A stretch of 62,971 nucleotides of DNA, counting the filler, from Conidiobolus incongruus B7586 (lineage: Eukaryota): NCBI GenBank assembly GCA_000697335.1. It is 17 parts of 17 records of this genome, joined end to end, with 100 filler letters (N's around TTAATTAATTAA, not from the genome) between each part and the next. Parts side by side here need not be neighbours in the genome. Positions count along the whole stretch, not along the records: positions 24,998 to 28,505 come from JNEM01000066.1; 16 more parts are not named here. One strand, written 5' to 3'. The translations under genes were made by a program, and so were the position numbers. The stretch's first letter is position 1. Each line of letters opens with the position of its first letter. Positions 24,276 through 59,493 of this stretch are shown here, piece after piece. The notes beneath the pieces were generated by a model. The model made no database searches. It worked only from the letters and a program-made list of their open reading frames with translations, and had not been told where the DNA came from.

Positions 24276-25681
24276 ATATTAATTTTGATATTTTTATTAT
24301 TATTATTATTATTAGTTATAAAAAATTTTGAACTTTAATATATTTGCTCTAAAATAAAAATAAAATTTTTTGATTATTTTTAAATTAAATACAAAATATT
24401 AAAGGTACTTTTTATTTATACCCTTTTTATACTAAAAATTTAAATTAATATTAATTAATAATATTTTCTTTGATTTTGATATTAAATGTTTGAATTAATG
24501 ATTTTGATGCTAATTTAAAGATCACTCTTTATTAAAACTAATATATAAAACTTTAAATATAAATCATTATAGGGTAAACTATAAACAGAAACATATATTT
24601 ATATGTTTTTTGAAATAATATAAATTTAAAATATTTTAATTAATAATATAATTTGGTTTATATAAATAAATTATTAATATTTTATAATAACTTATCATCT
24701 ATTTAATACTCAAAAAGATATATTTGAAATTATTTAATTTCAAATTATTTCGATTTTAAATAATCTTATTATATTAAATTATAATTTTTTAATAATTTTA
24801 ATGTTTAGTTTTATTAAATATTCTTGAAATGTTTTTTAAACTAAATTAAAAACTTTAAAATATAACTTTATATTGTTAATATCTATAAATAATTTTCNNN
24901 NNNNNNNNNNNNNNNNNNNNNNNNNNNNNNNNNNNNNNNNNTTAATTAATTAANNNNNNNNNNNNNNNNNNNNNNNNNNNNNNNNNNNNNNNNNNNNGTA
25001 TTTTTAATATAATTTCAAAATATTTAATATTTTGTATAATAATCTTAAAGTTTATAAAGCTGAAGTTATAAAATATTTTGTAACTGAAAAAATTAAGAAA
25101 ACCAATTATATTTAGTATACTTATTATATTATATCTATATTATTATAATTACCTTAAAAAATTAAAAAAATAGCTTATAAAAGAGAAAATTTCAATAAAA
25201 ATATAAAATTAGTTTAAAAAAGTCAAATTTTATTTTTTATTATAATATCTATTTTTTAAGAGTTTGAAATTTAAAAAAAATACTGCAAAAAGTGAACAAT
25301 AATAAAAATAAGAATGTTTTTACATTATATATTTATTATTATAACCTATATATAATAATCCTTATTTATTTTTAATCTAAAAAATTCTTATTATTTGAAA
25401 TCTAAATTAAAATATTAATAAACTTTGTATTAATTATTTATGAAAAATATTCAATGAAATAAAGGTTTAAGTATAAAATTTATAGTATTATATAATACAC
25501 TGTAAATTATAAATTTTAGTACTTTATTTTTTTCTGCTTTTAACATTTATAATTTTGTTTATATTGAATATTAGAAATTAAATTTTTTCAAAATTATTAT
25601 ACAAAAATTAAATTTAATTTGATAAATTCTTTTATTAAACTTTCAAAATTAAAACGAGATGTTGCAAGTTGACAAAATGGT

Positions 25682-25981
25682 TTAGTAGTAGTTACCTCCG
25701 TGGTGGCCTCCCCAGCCCCATTGTCTTCTGTAGTAGTTTCCACCATGGCGACCTCCCCAGCCCCATTGACGTCTGTAATAATTACCACCGTGATGACCTC
25801 CCCATCCCCATTGGCGTCTGTAGTAGTTACCACCATGATGGCCTCCCCAGTTGTTGTAGCCCCAACCACCATTAAAGAAGTTCTCCTCAGCTTCAGAGGC
25901 CAATTCGGCATTCTCAGACTCTGTAACAGGAGCAGCAGCGACCAAAGCAAAAGTGAAGATTAGAGATTTGAAATTGACCAT
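25682..25981 (-). CDS. Secreted Kex2-processed repeat peptide precursor (KEP): signal peptide, acidic pro-region, and RR-separated QWGWGG(H/R)HGGNYY repeats
   Basis: 99-aa ORF with a hydrophobic N-terminus (AAA|AP cleavage), 45-bp tandem units and RR at aa 55-56, 70-71 and 85-86. GC-rich coding island. TATAAATA on the minus strand at 26054-26047. Confidence 0.88.
   Translation of the reverse strand: MVNFKSLIFTFALVAAAPVTESENAELASEAEENFFNGGWGYNNWGGHHGGNYYRRQWGWGGHHGGNYYRRQWGWGGRHGGNYYRRQWGWGGHHGGNYY
25685..25849 (-). repeat. About 3.7 copies of a 45-bp coding tandem repeat
   Basis: Plus-strand units read gtaRtaRttWccWccRtgRYgRcctccccaKccccattg..tct and differ almost only at third codon positions. 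Confidence 0.92.
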
Positions 25982-27191
25982 ATTTGTTATTGATTAAATT
26001 GGATTAATACTTGATTTGATGATTAACTTAACAATACTACTCAGGGTATTTATATTAATAAGATTAAAGAACTGATTGGGATTCGCAATATAATCTCCAT
26101 AATGCCTAGAAATTGAACAATTTTGAAGTTTTAACTCCAACCTTATAATACAAACCAAATGAATGATTAAAATCCTAATTTATCAAATTTTCTCCAAACC
26201 TCCAAATTTTTTAATGATATAATTTTTGTAAATGAATTTTTTTGGATAAAGTGAATATTCTAATAGAAATAAAAATGTATGATAATTTAAAAACTCATTA
26301 TGTATAATAAGATCTTATAAAGCTTTCTAAACTACAGAATTACAGCTAACTCATTCATGTATCATATCTAGATTTATTATCTAAAGAAATCATTAAACTA
26401 AATAAGCTATTAAAAGGTCAAATTAAATTTACCAAATATTTAAAAAATATTTTAATTATAGTAATATTCATTAGTTACAAATACCAAACTAATATATTAA
26501 TGATATATTTACAAATTTAATAGTATTAAAAAAGTTGAATAAATTGAATATGACTGATTTGAAAGGATATTTTGTTATGAAATCAATAGAACGAATACAT
26601 AGAGCACTTCAAATTTAAATTGTAATGAATTCAATTAGCAATAGTAGCATAACTGGACTTGTATTTTGAAAAGTATACATTTTTATTAAAGTAATCTAAG
26701 ATTTCCAAAATATAGATCTTACAATTGTTTAATTCAATTTAATTTGGATTAATATATTTCTAATTAATATTTTTGAGTTAGCTTATTATTTTGTTGGAGT
26801 AAATTTTATAATATAATATAATTTTAAGTTACAAAATATTGTCTAATCCTTAAGTTTGATTTTAATTTGTTTTTTGACAATTTAATTTTTAAACTCAGAA
26901 TTCTAAAATTTTGGATTTGATCCCATAATATAAAAATACTAATGAATATATGAATAAAATCTGTTTAACAGTACTATTAAACCTTAAATAATCAAATCAT
27001 TTATTCAATAATTAAAATTAAATAATATATTAATATTATATAAACAAATTGATTATTTTCTATATTAATTATTTCAAATACATTTAAAAAATTTGCTTAA
27101 ACTGAGTTGTATACGAATTAATGTAATTAAAATTTTCAATTATATTTTATTCACATTAATCATATTCCTCTTAGTCCAATTAATTGTAAGG

Positions 27192-28505
27192 ATGACAGAA
27201 GTTGAAGAACCCCCTAAAGAAATTTGGTCAAATATTTTAAATACTGTAGCTACTTCCAAAGCTACTCCCACTAAAAATATCCTATTACTTGGTAAATTCC
27301 TCCCTAATAATCATTATTCGACTTCTAACGAACTATAGGTGAACCCAATAGTGGAAAATCGAGTTTGATAGATTTTTTCAAACATGAAAATATTTTGAAA
27401 GATAAGCAAGAAAATGACAATAATGAAGATTATCTTAAAGTTGAGGATAGTAACGAAATTAAAAATAATTTGGGATTGAATTACGATTTTGTTGATTTAA
27501 AAGATGAATTAGAAGGTGAATACTATTTTCAATATACTATTTTAATTTATATATAATTAATTGAGAATGTTAGATACAATTGGTCGTCTTAATTTCTTCG
27601 AATTAAGTGATACTCATGAACAATTTCACAACCTATTAAATCTCAGTTTAAATTTAAAAAATTATACTTCTACTATAGCTTGTATATTTTTGGATTGGAG
27701 TAAACCTTGGAACTTTATTCAAAATCTTCAGAAGTGGCTCACCTGCTTGGAGGTTGCCGTTTACAGCATTCAGGAGAGTGGTGGCGATGCTAGAAGTGAG
27801 GGTCAGAAGGATCGTTGGACCCTTGGCAAGCAGTTGGTTGATGAGGCTAAAGAAAAGTGTAATTTTAATGTATTCAATATATTGATGATTGGGTTTTAAT
27901 GAATTTTGCTCTTAGTACAGAGATCAATTCAAGAATTCAAAGAACCTACATCTGCTGAAAAGAAGTTGAATGCCATGAAATCTGATACTAACGGCTCTAC
28001 AGATCACTCTGTTTTATTACCTTTGGGTAATGGTTGTTTGACAATGAATTTGGGTATTCCTATTATTGTCATTTGTTCCAAGGTAATTCTTATACTATAT
28101 AACTACAATAATCATAATAATTAACAATTACTACAGTCTGATCAAATGAAAGTCATCGAAAGGGAAGGCAACTATAAAGAAGAAGAATTTGATTTTATTC
28201 AACAAACTTTGCGCACTACCTGCTTACAATGTAAAATTCATCGAACTTAAATAATATCTACAATTAATTAATTTGTAATTTGATAGATGGTGCATCTCTC
28301 ATTTACACATCCAACCAATCCAAAGCCAGTCTCAACCTTCTCAAGAATTACCTCTTGACAAAATCCTTCCCAACGACCAACAATATCTCAATCCTGCCCA
28401 ACTATTTAATGAATTACAACTTTAAGGCCCAAGTCGTCGATAGGGAAAAAGTGTTCATACCGGCGGGTTGGGACAGTTGGAACAAGATCCGAGTTTTGAG
28501 AGATA
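27192..28505 (+). CDS. Cytoplasmic dynein light intermediate chain, multi-exon, 3'-truncated
   Basis: IWSNILNTV..KNILLLG/EPNSGKSS (P-loop across intron 27292-27338), LDWSKPW, LPLGNGCLTMNLGIPIIVICSK, FDFIQQTLR..GASLIYTS and VFIPAGWDSWNKI. Confidence 0.93.
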
Positions 28506-28606
28506 NNNNNNNNNNNNNNNNNNNNNNNNNNNNNNNNNNNNNNNNNNNNTTAATTAATTAANNNNNNNNNNNNNNNNNNNNNNNNNNNNNNNNNNNNNNN
28601 NNNNNG

Positions 28607-41131: not shown

Positions 41132-42811
41132 ATGAAAGATTTAACTAGGGCTAACGATGACAACCTGGAAACTCCTGTTCCGGAAGACGCTCCCGAAAAC
41201 CAAAATGAAAATCATTTGGTGACTAAAATGGCACAGGTCAGAACAAAAACTGATCAATGGATTATTTTCGTTAGTTTGGTCTTGCTCGGTCAAGCTCTAT
41301 CCCTCATTGGCACTGTGACATATTCGCTTGTGCCTCATATTCTAGATGAACTTAAAGCTTTTGATATTTCCACTGTTACCGACATTTTCAATACTCTCCT
41401 TGCTATTTTCTTGGTACCTCTCCTGGCTGCACTTGCAGATATTTATGGCCGTGGTCTCATCCTTGGTATATTTATGGCTATCATGACAGCTGGTACATTT
41501 ATTGTTGGTTTTGCCAATTCATTCACTATGTATAGTGTTGGTAATATTATTAGCCAAATCGGAGAGCAAGGAAGAAGTTTCCTAATCCCCATTGTTATTG
41601 CCGATTTCCTCAGACCTAGAAATAGAGGTTTTGGATTTATTCTTTTTTGGATACCCAGTTTTATATCCCTTGGTCTCTCAATTCCCATTGCTTTGCCTGC
41701 AAAAGCACTTGGATGGAGATGAATGTACATCATTAGAGCGATATTTATGGGGATCCTCTCTATTCCGGTATTATTGGGTCTCTTCCGCGTTCAAAAGCGT
41801 GCTAGAAATCTCATGCCCAATTTTAACTATAACGCCTCCTCTTTACTTGAAGTCGACTGGATCGGCCTTATTTTATTATGTGTTGGTCTTGGCTTCTTTA
41901 CTACTCCCTTTGTCATTGCCACTCGCTACGAAGGAGGCTTCTCTCATCCTGCCGTATTCGTTCCAATTATTGTTGGTATTATTATATGTGCAGTGTTCAT
42001 TGTTTGGGAATGGAAATATTCTAAATATCCAATTATTGACAAGAATTTAATCAAAAATCGTGCAACCTTCATTATGATTATTGCTAGATCATTTGAATCT
42101 TTAGAAGGATCTATCACTTGGGCTTATTTAAACGCATATCTTCAAGTGTCTAGGGGTATAGAAGAAGATAGAATTTTGTTAATTACACTTGCTTTCCGTG
42201 TTTCTTGGTACCTCATGGGATTTATCACAGCTTTTGTCCTTAAAAAGGTGAACCGCGTTAGATATATAGTTTGGTTTGGCTTTTCATTGACCGCAATTGG
42301 TGTTGGTCTCACTATTCCAGCTCGTCATCCTGATCACTCTGAAGCATGGATTATTACTGCCGAAGCTTTGATCGGTACAGGTTCTGGTATTACATCATGT
42401 GCTGGTTTAGTTGTTCTCCAATCTACTGTTGATTTCAAAGATATTGCTAGGATTTCAGCTTTAGATTCTATTATATCTAATGTTTTGTCAGCTTTTGGTA
42501 GCGCCATTGCTACTAGCGTTTGGAATGCCAACCTCTCAAAGAATTTGCTTGCCGAACTCCCTGCTGAATACTCCGACCAAGTAAAAGATTTCCTTGAAAG
42601 TCTCTTAAGTCTCAGAAAGTTACCTTCCGAGTTAACCGATAAATGGCTCACTGCTATTGGCAACACCCAATGGCTTATGTGCACAATTTCAACTGTTTTT
42701 GCTGTTTCATTCTTAGTTGCTGCATTCTGTCTCCCTGATATTGATTTGGATAAATGCCAACTGGAACAAGAAGCCAAAACCAATCATTCAGAAAAAACTG
42801 AGAAAGTCTAA
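41132..42811 (+). pseudogene. Siderophore-iron transporter-type (ARN/SIT) MFS gene with one in-frame TGA at 41720-41722
   Basis: ORFs 41132-41722 and 41723-42811 are in the same frame and align end to end with the paralog at 47483. GWR*MY corresponds to KWRWLY. Confidence 0.8.
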
Positions 42812-47482: not shown

Positions 47483-49156
47483 ATGAGCGACCAAAGAAAT
47501 GAGGTTGAGGAGTCCCTCCCTAGGTACTCAGAATTTGATACCAATGAGAACATTGTATTGAAAATGTCTCAAATCCGTAATAATATCGATAACTGGACTA
47601 TTTATATCGGTGTTCTATTGCTCGGTTTAACAATCGCTATCCTAGTTAATGCTCAATCTACTTTATCCTTCGTCATCACATCAAGTTTCCAATCTTTTGA
47701 TATTGGTGCAGTTACTGATGTTGTCAACACTCTTTTAGGCATTCTTTTTGTTCCACTTGTAGCTGCTTTGTCTGATGTTTATGGACGTGGTCTTATCCTT
47801 ACTATTTGTTTAATTATTAACATTATTGGTTCAGTTATTGTTGGAACTGCAGCCAGCTTTGGTGCATACAGTGCCGGTAATATCATTGCAGGTCTTGGCG
47901 AAACTGGTCGTGCCCTCTTAGTTCCTATTATTTTAGCCGATTTTCTTGCTCCTAAAAATCGTGGTTTTGGTTTTATTTTAAATTGGTTACCTAGTGCTAT
48001 TGCTCTCGGTGTTGCTATTCCAGTTATTGCTGCTTCTGAAACTGATGGCAAGTGGCGCTGGTTGTATAATGGTCAAGCCATTTTTGTTGCTGTTACCGGT
48101 GCTCCTATCCTCCTCGGTTTATTCCGTTTACAACGTAGAGCCCAACGTTTATTGCCTCAATTCAATTACCAGGCTTCATCTCTTCGTAAAGTAGACTGGA
48201 TTGGTATTATTTTATTGACCACTGGCTTGGGTTTTATCCTTGTTCCTTTCACCCTCGTTGTTCGTCAAGAAGATGGCTGGGCTGCTCCTGCTATTTTTGT
48301 TCCCATTATTTTCGGCATCCTTATAATTCTAGGATTTGTATTGTGGGAGGTTAAATATACCAAATACTCTCTTGTTAGTTACAGACTCTTGCGCAATAGA
48401 TCAGCTATGATCATGATTGTTGTCCGTGCTTTCTTAATGTTTGATTCAAGTCTCACTTGGCAATATATGACCCCATACCTGTCTTTGACTCGTGAAATTG
48501 ATCCTAACCATGTAGCTCAGATTAATTTGGGCTATCGTGTCACATGGTATGTCTTGGGTTTCATATGTGCTTTTGTACTTAGAAGATTCAACAAATATAC
48601 TAGAAGCATTGTATGGGTTTCTATGGCAGTTAACGCTTTAGGTGTTGGTCTTACTCTTCCATCTCGTCATCCACACACCGCCGAAGGTGTTGTCGTTTTC
48701 GTTGAAGCTTTGATTGGTGCTGGTGCTGGTGTTTCCGCATGCGCTGGTTTAGTTGTCCTCCAAACTACGGTTGATTTTAGCGATATTGCCAATATCTCAG
48801 CTATTGATACCCTTGTAACCAGCGTCTTCACTTCTATTGCCTCAGCCGTTGGTATCAACGTTTGGAACAACAGCTTGACTAAAAATTTATCTAAAGAGCT
48901 TCCTGAGAAATTCCATGACCAAATCGCCGATCTTATTGCTGATACTTCTAAATTAGCAGCATTACCTTTAGAGGTCAAGGAGAATTGGATGACAGCTTTA
49001 GGTGATAGTCAATGGCTCATGTGTACCATTTCAACTGTGTTCGCTTGCGTATGCTTGGCCTTAACTTTCTTTTTACCCAGTATCGATTTGGAAAAATGCC
49101 AACAAAATATGGTGCAATCTAATCAAACTGAATCTAAAGAAATGACGACATATTAA
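47483..49156 (+). CDS. Siderophore-iron transporter-type (ARN/SIT family) MFS permease, 557 aa, single exon
   Basis: LSDVYGR, YSAGNII..LG.TG..L..IILADF....NRG, GKWRW, VDWIGIILL and W...L...LP motifs, with about 14 hydrophobic segments. Confidence 0.85.
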   Translation: MSDQRNEVEESLPRYSEFDTNENIVLKMSQIRNNIDNWTIYIGVLLLGLTIAILVNAQSTLSFVITSSFQSFDIGAVTDVVNTLLGILFVPLVAALSDVYGRGLILTICLIINIIGSVIVGTAASFGAYSAGNIIAGLGETGRALLVPIILADFLAPKNRGFGFILNWLPSAIALGVAIPVIAASETDGKWRWLYNGQAIFVAVTGAPILLGLFRLQRRAQRLLPQFNYQASSLRKVDWIGIILLTTGLGFILVPFTLVVRQEDGWAAPAIFVPIIFGILIILGFVLWEVKYTKYSLVSYRLLRNRSAMIMIVVRAFLMFDSSLTWQYMTPYLSLTREIDPNHVAQINLGYRVTWYVLGFICAFVLRRFNKYTRSIVWVSMAVNALGVGLTLPSRHPHTAEGVVVFVEALIGAGAGVSACAGLVVLQTTVDFSDIANISAIDTLVTSVFTSIASAVGINVWNNSLTKNLSKELPEKFHDQIADLIADTSKLAALPLEVKENWMTALGDSQWLMCTISTVFACVCLALTFFLPSIDLEKCQQNMVQSNQTESKEMTTY

Positions 49157-59217: not shown

Positions 59218-59493
59218 ATGAAATTCACTGTCGTCGTTGCTACCATTTTGGCCACAGCTTTCGCTTCCCCAACTGATGTTCTCAATCTCGTTAATGTTAA
59301 GCGTGTGCCTGTTTCTGTTTTGAGCTCTGGAAATACCTCTGCTGATAACATCGACATCTCTAACATTAGTCAAGATGGTGTCGGCAGCGGGGTTGGTGCC
59401 GATCAAGTTGTTCGTGAAGCAACAAGAAATTATGAAGAAGATGCCGTTGAAGCATTGTTGGCTTTATTAGTTGGACACGACTATGAAGAATAA
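59218..59493 (+). CDS. Small secreted acidic protein of unknown function (91 aa) with one KR site
   Basis: MKFTVVVATILATAFA|SP signal peptide, GC-rich coding-like codon usage, AAAATG start context and AATAAA after the stop. Confidence 0.78.
   Translation: MKFTVVVATILATAFASPTDVLNLVNVKRVPVSVLSSGNTSADNIDISNISQDGVGSGVGADQVVREATRNYEEDAVEALLALLVGHDYEE

What the first reader, a model, noticed from the sequence alone, without database searches (positions are those of the whole stretch)
25682..25981. Secreted precursor of repeated Trp/Gly/His/Tyr peptides (QWGWGGHHGGNYY): candidate new fungal peptide system
Seen: signal peptide, acidic pro-region (ESENAELASEAEE), then WGGHHGGNYY-RR-QWGWGGHHGGNYY-RR-QWGWGGRHGGNYY-RR-QWGWGGHHGGNYY-stop. 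The last copy ends exactly at the stop, with no trailing RR. The 45-bp units differ at many third positions (TAC/TAT, AAC/AAT, GGA/GGT/GGC, CAC/CAT, AGA/CGT/CGC) but carry only one amino-acid change (H>R), which points to purifying selection on the released peptide. Established: this is the architecture of Kex2-processed repeat proteins such as alpha-factor and ustiloxin-type precursors, where Kex2 cuts after dibasic sites and Kex1 trims them; an exposed N-terminal Gln readily becomes pyroglutamate. Inference: three 13-mers plus one N-extended variant are secreted as a signal, antimicrobial or effector peptide. I do not recognise this core from any characterised family. No tailoring enzyme lies on this short contig.
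Basis: partly seen in the sequence, partly recalled or inferred. Interest (0 to 1): 0.88.

Follow-up and report, generated by a model that had tools for sequence, protein, structure and literature searches.

The report
Conidiobolus-type aromatic repeat-peptide precursor
A real, multi-copy fungal gene encodes a small protein predicted to be secreted and likely cut at Arg-Arg sites into short glycine- and aromatic-rich peptides; a close relative is already listed in computer surveys of such precursors, and the peptides' job, most likely a self-assembling surface coat or glue, is untested.

Summary
A 99-aa single-frame gene (25682-25981, minus strand) has a signal-like start, an acidic pro-segment and four WGG[H/R]HGGNYY units split by three RR sites, and it ends at YY-stop. 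The units show 11 synonymous changes against 1 amino-acid change (p about 1e-6). It is a Kex2-processed repeat protein (KEP) of a Conidiobolus-like fungus.

It is not a wholly new system. Its nearest relative, C. coronatus KXN68836.1 (65% identical), is a row in the Umemura 2020 KEP catalogue, marked there as also found by Le Marquer 2019. No function for it turned up in my searches.

What I add: it is a small lineage-restricted, multi-copy family. All 14 of 14 dibasic sites in six genes are [K/R]R preceded by Y[Y/H]. Cores are 10-17 aa, 81% G/Y/H/N/W and almost without aliphatic residues. His-His is not conserved (5 of 14 cores). Ustiloxin-type cyclisation is unlikely, and no dibasic site frees the first unit from the pro-segment.

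Processing into linear peptides: about 0.85. Function: self-assembling surface or adhesive material about 0.35, GPCR signal 0.27, metal-dependent antimicrobial 0.13.

The parts
25682..25981 (-). Single-frame ORF, 99-aa KEP precursor
   Evidence: homologues
25934..25981 (-). Predicted signal peptide, aa 1-16 (cleavage before Ala-Pro inferred)
   Evidence: hydropathy; helix 4-15 in model; conserved in relatives; SignalP not run
25883..25933 (-). Acidic pro-segment, aa 17-33, six Glu; no dibasic site after it
25820..25882 (-). N-extended first unit, aa 34-54 (NFFNGGWGYNN + WGGHHGGNYY)
25814..25819 (-). RR site 1 (predicted Kex2/Kex1)
25775..25813 (-). Core 2, QWGWGGHHGGNYY (calculated monoisotopic 1517.62; pyroGlu form 1500.60)
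25769..25774 (-). RR site 2
25730..25768 (-). Core 3, H>R variant QWGWGGRHGGNYY (1536.67; pyroGlu 1519.64)
25724..25729 (-). RR site 3
25685..25723 (-). Core 4, QWGWGGHHGGNYY, ends directly at the stop codon
26049..26054 (-). TATAAA 73 bases upstream of the ATG (possible TATA box; AT-rich DNA, so weak)
24998..28505 (.). The 3.5-kb contig carrying the gene; its only other gene is a divergent, truncated dynein light intermediate chain gene (from 27192, + strand)

Best explanation
The gene encodes a predicted secreted precursor that is likely cut by Kex2 and trimmed by Kex1 into linear 13-residue Gly/aromatic peptides, which would most likely self-assemble outside the cell into a surface coat or adhesive matrix. 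Shown: the layout, selection on the unit, the invariant Y[Y/H]-[K/R]R junction across the family, and several related copies in the same DNA sample. Inferred from known pathways (about 0.85): ER entry, late-Golgi cleavage, release of three 13-mers with N-terminal Gln prone to pyroglutamate, and a pro-plus-first-unit fragment of about 38 aa. Inferred from composition only (about 0.4 given processing): the six Glu and seven Arg would keep the precursor soluble; removing the Arg pairs would leave near-neutral peptides with Trp/Tyr stickers and Gly spacers; these would condense or form fibrils as His deprotonates after secretion, and might be cured through the terminal Tyr-Tyr by secreted tyrosinases. 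This would work like Ustilago Rep1 repellents (same processing, surface fibrils) with squid-beak or mussel-like chemistry.
For: 14 of 14 dibasic sites in six genes are [K/R]R (11 RR, 3 KR, no RK or KK), preceded by YY (12) or YH (2) and followed by N/Q/D/G; this is the Kex2 rule (PMC8528282). The last unit ends at YY-stop in the query and in P0005. The 14 cores are 81% G/Y/H/N/W, 27% aromatic, 0.5% aliphatic and have no Cys; length (10-17) and order vary between genes while composition persists. Units are nearly identical within this gene despite pS up to 0.72. In run X1, 28 of 41 contigs laid on the gene are under 99% alike, and some extend into upstream DNA, which fits a multi-copy family. 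The model is disordered beyond the signal helix (mean pLDDT 47). Precedents: Rep1 peptides form surface amyloid fibrils (PMC3133707 abstract); His/Tyr-driven pH-dependent coacervation of squid-beak peptides (PMC9999432 passages). Entomophthoralean conidia carry an adhesive mucinous film (PMC9026835). The nature of the Entomophthora adhesive is undetermined (PMC8588673). Hydrophobins are nearly Dikarya-only (PMC6784888). C. coronatus has 55 tyrosinases (PMC12387763).
Against: No experiment, expression pattern or localisation supports it. Squid-beak peptides need at least two GHGLY motifs, and a 13-mer may be too short to condense. Mussel adhesives are polycationic, while these cores are near neutral. 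Rep1 peptides are described as amphipathic, and these cores have almost no aliphatic residues. Strict conservation of every position fits receptor recognition equally well. Knock-outs of Coprinopsis KEP genes gave no phenotype (PMC9769878 abstract). No tyrosinase lies on the 3.5-kb contig. One of the six genes counted (P0015) is a doubtful member (profile E 0.019; pairwise E 0.38); without it the count is 13 of 13. The divergent contigs could partly be alleles.
Confidence: 0.35

Rival explanations
1. The released linear peptides are diffusible signals (pheromone- or hormone-like) read by the fungus's own expanded class-A-like GPCRs, with each paralogue giving a different ligand.
For: Multi-copy precursors of short linear peptides are the alpha-pheromone design (PMC6339444). 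The 13-residue length, two Trp near the N-terminus and a C-terminal Tyr resemble yeast alpha-factor (recalled, not tested). Position-by-position conservation. Likely pyroglutamate cap. C. coronatus has 125 PF00001 receptors (PMC12387763).
Against: No Ste13 XA/XP spacer follows any of the 14 sites. KXN68836.1 carries no mating-factor or pheromone mark in Umemura Table S2, and Pfam gives no hit. Low-complexity cores that drift in length between paralogues are unusual for ligands (inference). No receptor lies on the contig.
Confidence: 0.27
2. The peptides are His/Gly-rich metal binders (Zn/Cu) with antimicrobial action against competitors on cadavers or in litter, like plant shepherin I.
For: His-His-Gly-Gly in three of the four units; 12 of 14 cores contain His, and P0004/P0013 cores are about 30% His. 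Shepherin I forms antifungal fibrils with Zn(II) (PMC10698721 abstract). This is partly compatible with the assembly model.
Against: His-His is in only 5 of 14 cores and two P0008 cores have no His. The first His is replaced by Arg both here and in P0001. One divergent contig appears to carry Phe-Pro in place of His-His (read by hand from a joint, short side 25 letters, weak). Cores are near neutral and not amphipathic.
Confidence: 0.13
3. The protein is not cut; it is secreted whole as a Gly/Tyr/Arg-rich wall or adhesive protein in which RR serves cation-pi cohesion.
For: No dibasic site removes the pro-segment. Arg/Lys-Tyr-rich adhesives exist (PMC9999432). The only Atlas look-alikes of P0015 are unnamed Gly-rich proteins at a non-significant 0.76. 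Kex2 itself could not be looked up because no genome is held.
Against: The P1 residue is always Arg and K/R exchange occurs only at P2. Terminal units stop exactly where a site would begin.
Confidence: 0.1
4. The peptides act on the host (insect, possibly vertebrate) as effectors or neuropeptide-like mimics.
For: Linear KEP peptides include effectors and candidalysin (PMC7329392). The nearest relatives are from an insect pathogen. The family is lineage-restricted and multi-copy.
Against: No similarity to any known effector, toxin or neuropeptide in Pfam, NCBIfam or the PDB. No amidation Gly precedes any of the 14 sites. No infection-stage expression data.
Confidence: 0.08
5. The cores are cyclised into a dikaritin-type (ustiloxin-like) RiPP through Tyr.
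For: Tyr-rich cores, and HH and W occur in some DUF3328-linked KEPs. Many tyrosinases in C. coronatus.
Against: No DUF3328 protein was detected outside Ascomycota and Basidiomycota. 0 of 185 Zoopagomycota KEPs have one nearby. The KXN68836.1 row is blank for it. No tailoring gene lies on the contig.
Confidence: 0.03

Closest known systems
C. coronatus KXN68836.1 (CONCODRAFT_18747), stand-alone KEP 'type 0' in Umemura 2020 Table S2, marked as also detected by Le Marquer 2019
   Same: 65% identity over 98 aa, pairwise E 4e-33; same signal, acidic pro-segment, GGHHGGNYY-RR units
   Different: 16-residue cores starting with Asn rather than 13-mers starting with Gln; the annotated model has a degenerate second copy as a tail; catalogued only by computation, no function found
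KEX2-processed repeat proteins (KEPs; PMC6339444, PMC7329392, PMC9769878)
   Same: Signal peptide plus repeated cores between KR/RR sites
   Different: Core matches no described type I could search; invariant Y[Y/H] before each site; no Ste13 spacer; no site after the pro-segment
Ustilago maydis Rep1 repellents (PMC3133707)
   Same: [quoted passage not shown]
   Different: No sequence match found by my searches; Rep1 gives 11 amphipathic peptides, while these cores are aromatic/Gly-rich; assembly is shown for Rep1 and only inferred here
Ascomycete alpha-pheromone precursors
   Same: Several copies of a short linear Trp- and Tyr-bearing peptide between dibasic sites (13-mer likeness recalled)
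   Different: No MF_alpha Pfam hit, no XA/XP spacers, no N-glycosylation sequon in the precursor, different phylum
Squid-beak His-rich peptides and mussel foot protein 3 (PMC9999432)
   Same: Gly/His/Tyr-rich, disordered, candidates for pH-triggered condensation and oxidative curing
   Different: Analogy of composition only; animal proteins are longer, mussel proteins are cationic and MFP-3 is not repetitive
Shepherin I (PMC10698721)
   Same: Short Gly/His-rich peptide
   Different: His content is lower here and not conserved across the family; aromatic residues dominate

Membership tests
KEP (Le Marquer 2019 / Umemura 2020 definitions) | N-terminal signal peptide (SignalP) | tested here: inconclusive
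   SignalP not available; basic residue, hydrophobic core (peak 2.7) and small-residue end fit; homologue KXN68836.1 passed SignalP in the survey
KEP (Le Marquer 2019 / Umemura 2020 definitions) | At least four fragments on KR/RR cleavage and at least three similar repeats of 8-100 aa | tested here: met
   Four fragments, four copies of a 10-residue motif, three full 13-mers (criteria)
KEP (Le Marquer 2019 / Umemura 2020 definitions) | Repeats cover at least 15% of the protein | tested here: met
   3 x 13 of 99 aa = 39% (criterion)
KEP (Le Marquer 2019 / Umemura 2020 definitions) | Actual cleavage by Kex2/Kex1 and a KEX2 gene in the genome | not testable with these tools
   No genome held; site pattern fits
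Dikaritin (ustiloxin-type) RiPP | DUF3328 gene near the precursor | tested here: inconclusive
   None on the 3.5-kb contig, too short to exclude; survey found none in the phylum or near the homologue
Dikaritin (ustiloxin-type) RiPP | YXIX-like core of the ustiloxin/phomopsin type | tested here: not met
   No Ile in any of 14 cores (motif)
Alpha-pheromone precursors | MF_alpha or pheromone profile match | tested here: not met
   No Pfam family at E 0.01; homologue unmarked in Table S2
Alpha-pheromone precursors | Ste13 XA/XP dipeptides after the Kex2 site | tested here: not met
   Post-site dipeptides QW, NG, NE, DW, GW, QY
Rep1-type repellents | Sequence similarity to Rep1 | tested here: not met
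   No Rep1-like hit among the hits; no direct pairwise comparison was made
Rep1-type repellents | Peptides form amyloid fibrils on aerial structures | not testable with these tools
   Needs synthetic peptide and localisation
Shepherin-like His/Gly metal-dependent antimicrobial peptides | Conserved multi-His core | tested here: not met
   His-His in 5 of 14 cores, no His in 2 of 14

The most novel reading that the evidence does not exclude
This family is the protein part of the unexplained sticky coat of Conidiobolus-type spores: Kex2-released, pH-triggered, Tyr-Tyr-ended peptides that condense and are cured by the lineage's expanded tyrosinases. It would be a fungal, short-peptide counterpart of mussel and squid-beak wet adhesives in a lineage that appears to lack hydrophobins.
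Probability: 0.12. Interest if true: 0.75.

Novelty: new member of a known kind. Interest (0 to 1): 0.35.

Why it matters
KEPs are common and almost all lack a function, so one more is modest news. This one is a clean, cheaply testable case from an early-diverging phylum. Exact peptide masses are predicted, the cores are easy to synthesise, and the family rule (Y[Y/H]-[K/R]R, aromatic/Gly cores) separates the hypotheses. If the peptides form the spore coat or glue, they would answer an open question in Entomophthorales biology and give a very short wet-adhesive motif. If they are GPCR ligands, they would be a first peptide signal for this group, as far as my searches reach.

Tried and rejected
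No whole genome is held, so KEX2, KEX1, glutaminyl cyclase, DUF3328 and tyrosinase genes and the true copy number could not be looked up. The exact protein is not in the 15-billion collection. No RNA holder was listed; this says nothing on expression. Runs X5-X7 held none of the sampled words and nothing of X5 was laid; this is no proof of absence.

Search for longer relatives: 0 of 7,991 candidates scored (weak). Metagenome contig scans: 0 of 370 and 0 of 227 pattern matches confirmed. Pfam and NCBIfam: no family for the query or the relatives tested. PDB profile search: 0. Atlas: no usable hit for the query; two look-alikes at 0.76 for P0015, treated as noise. The structure model is low-confidence, so no fold search was run.

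Dropped as compositional or repeat noise: 6 of the 11 hits (P0003, P0006, P0007, P0010 read; P0011, P0012 not read, dropped on length, low identity and many short stretches) and P0014. P0002 and P0013 were left out of the site count as near-duplicates of P0001 and P0004, and P0009 has no repeats.

The overlapping ORFs 25597-25911 (-) and 25745-25963 (+) are rejected as shadows: the variable columns are third positions of the 99-aa frame. No second family member was found in the window (tblastn; pattern).

Literature: 0 papers for Conidiobolus + Kex2, for six accession or locus tags or for five core motifs. No tags in the supplements of PMC9026835 and PMC12387763. Core motifs are absent from the held supplements of the two surveys, which list accessions rather than sequences. 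Le Marquer's Table S2 is an external web table that I could not see, so their motif for this family may be on record there. The hydrophobin review PMC13514795 had no passage on early-diverging fungi. Earlier-findings look-ups by sequence, place and specific words were empty.

Full report
Observation. The minus strand of 25682-25981 holds an uninterrupted 99-codon ORF, 50% GC within flanks of 13-20% GC. It reads as a signal-like 16 residues, an acidic segment with six Glu, then NFFNGGWGYNN-WGGHHGGNYY, RR, QWGWGGHHGGNYY, RR, QWGWGGRHGGNYY, RR, QWGWGGHHGGNYY, stop. The 45-bp array is the highest-scoring of 48 tandem-repeat rows in the window. Across units I count a minimum of 11 synonymous changes and 1 non-synonymous change, with pS 0.41-0.72 and pN 0-0.044. 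Binomial p is 1e-7 to 4e-6 under transition biases of 1 to 8. The precursor is predicted disordered beyond a helix at residues 4-15 (mean pLDDT 47). One correction: no dibasic site separates the acidic segment from the first unit, so that product would be about 38 residues unless another protease acts.

Context. The window is 17 small contigs joined by artificial linkers. The gene's contig is 3,508 bp and otherwise holds part of an intron-split dynein light intermediate chain gene. Genes further away are not real neighbours, and the lack of tailoring enzymes here is uninformative. No genome is held.

Relatives. The word-indexed search found 1 of 2 candidates (P0001, 63%). Its cluster contains C. 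coronatus KXN68836.1 (P0002), 65% identical to the query over 98 residues. The exhaustive search of 1.84 billion representatives gave 11 hits. Five share the signal or pro-segment (P0001, P0004, P0005 = C. coronatus KXN65018.1, P0008, P0009), and six were dropped as long compositional matches. A profile added a doubtful C. coronatus member, P0015 (E 0.019; pairwise E 0.38), and one dropped hit. All named relatives are from C. coronatus, so I infer a Conidiobolus-like entomophthoralean fungus. The query and two neighbouring ORFs are not in the protein collection letter for letter.

Several copies in this genome. In DNA run X1, 41 contigs lay on the 351-base gene region: 13 at 99% or more, 5 at 95-99%, 12 at 90-95% and 11 under 90%. 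Divergent contigs also cover upstream and downstream DNA. Of the 37 listed differences, read singly, 24 are synonymous third-position changes. Loose ends show other signal and pro-segment versions, and one joint, read by hand, suggests a unit with Phe-Pro in place of His-His (short side 25 letters, weak). Runs X1-X3 are one sample that may be the window's source. Depth is no copy number, and some variants may be alleles. Several paralogues are nevertheless the simplest reading.

Family rule. In six genes (query, P0001, P0004, P0005, P0008, P0015) all 14 dibasic sites past the signal region are RR (11) or KR (3), each preceded by YY (12) or YH (2) and followed by N, Q, D or G. Without P0015 it is 13 of 13. 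An invariant P1 Arg with Lys/Arg at P2 is the Kex2 rule (PMC8528282, passages). The 14 cores are 10-17 residues, 81% G/Y/H/N/W, 27% aromatic, 0.5% aliphatic and Cys-free. 12 have Trp in the first five positions, 12 have His, and only 5 have His-His. The His-to-Arg change recurs in P0001.

What is in print. Umemura 2020 (PMC7329392; abstract, passages, sections 7, 9, 11 and supplement searches seen) lists KXN68836.1 among 19 C. coronatus KEPs as stand-alone, with no DUF3328 or pheromone mark, and as also found by Le Marquer 2019. It reports 11.56 KEPs per Zoopagomycota strain, 0 of 185 with DUF3328 nearby, and no DUF3328 outside Ascomycota and Basidiomycota. Le Marquer 2019 (PMC6339444; passages, section 24, supplement legend) keeps its motif table on an external site that I could not see. 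Vogt 2022 (PMC9769878; abstract, passages) detected linear, often pyroglutamated KEP peptides in mushrooms and saw no kep knock-out phenotype. Searches for Conidiobolus with Kex2, for the accessions and for the core motifs returned no paper. So the class is known, a homologue is catalogued, and I found no function on record.

Mechanism. Processing into linear peptides is likely (about 0.85, inferred). For function I rank self-assembly into a surface coat or adhesive first (0.35 overall). The composition is that of aromatic stickers on Gly spacers. It persists while length and order drift between genes, yet units within a gene are held identical, as in-register stacking would require (general knowledge). 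Many copies suggest a need for quantity. The six Glu and seven Arg would keep the precursor soluble until Kex2 and Kex1 remove the Arg pairs. Precedents are Rep1 (PMC3133707, abstract) and His/Tyr-driven coacervation (PMC9999432, passages and section 27 part 1). The ecological fit is an adhesive conidial film (PMC9026835, passages), an unidentified adhesive in Entomophthora (PMC8588673, passages), near absence of hydrophobins outside Dikarya (PMC6784888, passages) and 55 tyrosinases in C. coronatus (PMC12387763, passages). Against it: 13-mers may be too short, the cores are neither cationic nor aliphatic, and there is no direct evidence.

Rivals. A GPCR signal (0.27) is close behind, given the alpha-factor-like layout (likeness recalled) and 125 PF00001 receptors in C. 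coronatus. Ste13 spacers and pheromone profiles are missing. A shepherin-like metal-dependent antimicrobial (0.13; PMC10698721, abstract) is weakened by the poor conservation of His. An uncleaved wall protein (0.10), a host effector (0.08) and a cyclic dikaritin (0.03) follow. PMC11105155 (passages) added only that tyrosinases and PF00001 genes are also numerous in E. muscae. PMC13514795 gave no relevant passage. Eight earlier AI notes on other fungal KEP candidates only show how often this class turns up; I did not test them.

Verdict. The feature is real and well selected, but it is a new member of a known kind whose nearest relative is already catalogued. The upside is the 0.12 chance that it is the peptide glue of entomophthoralean spores.

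Noticed in passing
window, 16 places (e.g. 24898-24997, 28506-28605): The window is 17 small contigs joined by an N44 / 12-base stop linker / N44 spacer, so apparent gene order across linkers is artificial.
   Followed up: yes
window 59218-59493 (+): Another small single-frame, secreted-looking ORF (91 aa) with one KR site after a short pro-piece, a Val/Ser/Asn/Ile-rich middle and an acidic tail; no Pfam family, only a far-below-cutoff NCBIfam match.
   Followed up: partly
P0002 (KXN68836.1) residues 96-135: The annotated tail is a degenerate second copy of pro-segment plus first unit (45% identity to query 15-56), suggesting a gene model that fuses two tandem copies. Adjacent accessions KXN68835 and KXN65014/16/17 are also catalogued KEPs (types 300, 328), hinting at tandem arrays; their relation to this family was not tested.
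   Followed up: partly
P0005 (KXN65018.1): Clear family member whose annotated N-terminus lacks the hydrophobic signal; it is not among the 19 catalogued C. coronatus KEPs, so the surveys likely undercount the family.
   Followed up: partly
window 41132-42811 and 47483-49156 (+): Two related MFS transporter genes on one 19-kb contig; the second also matches TRI12.
   Followed up: no
window 25982-26276: Divergent contigs in the DNA runs match the upstream region at roughly 90%, so some copies of the gene share promoter DNA and are probably recent duplicates or alleles.
   Followed up: partly
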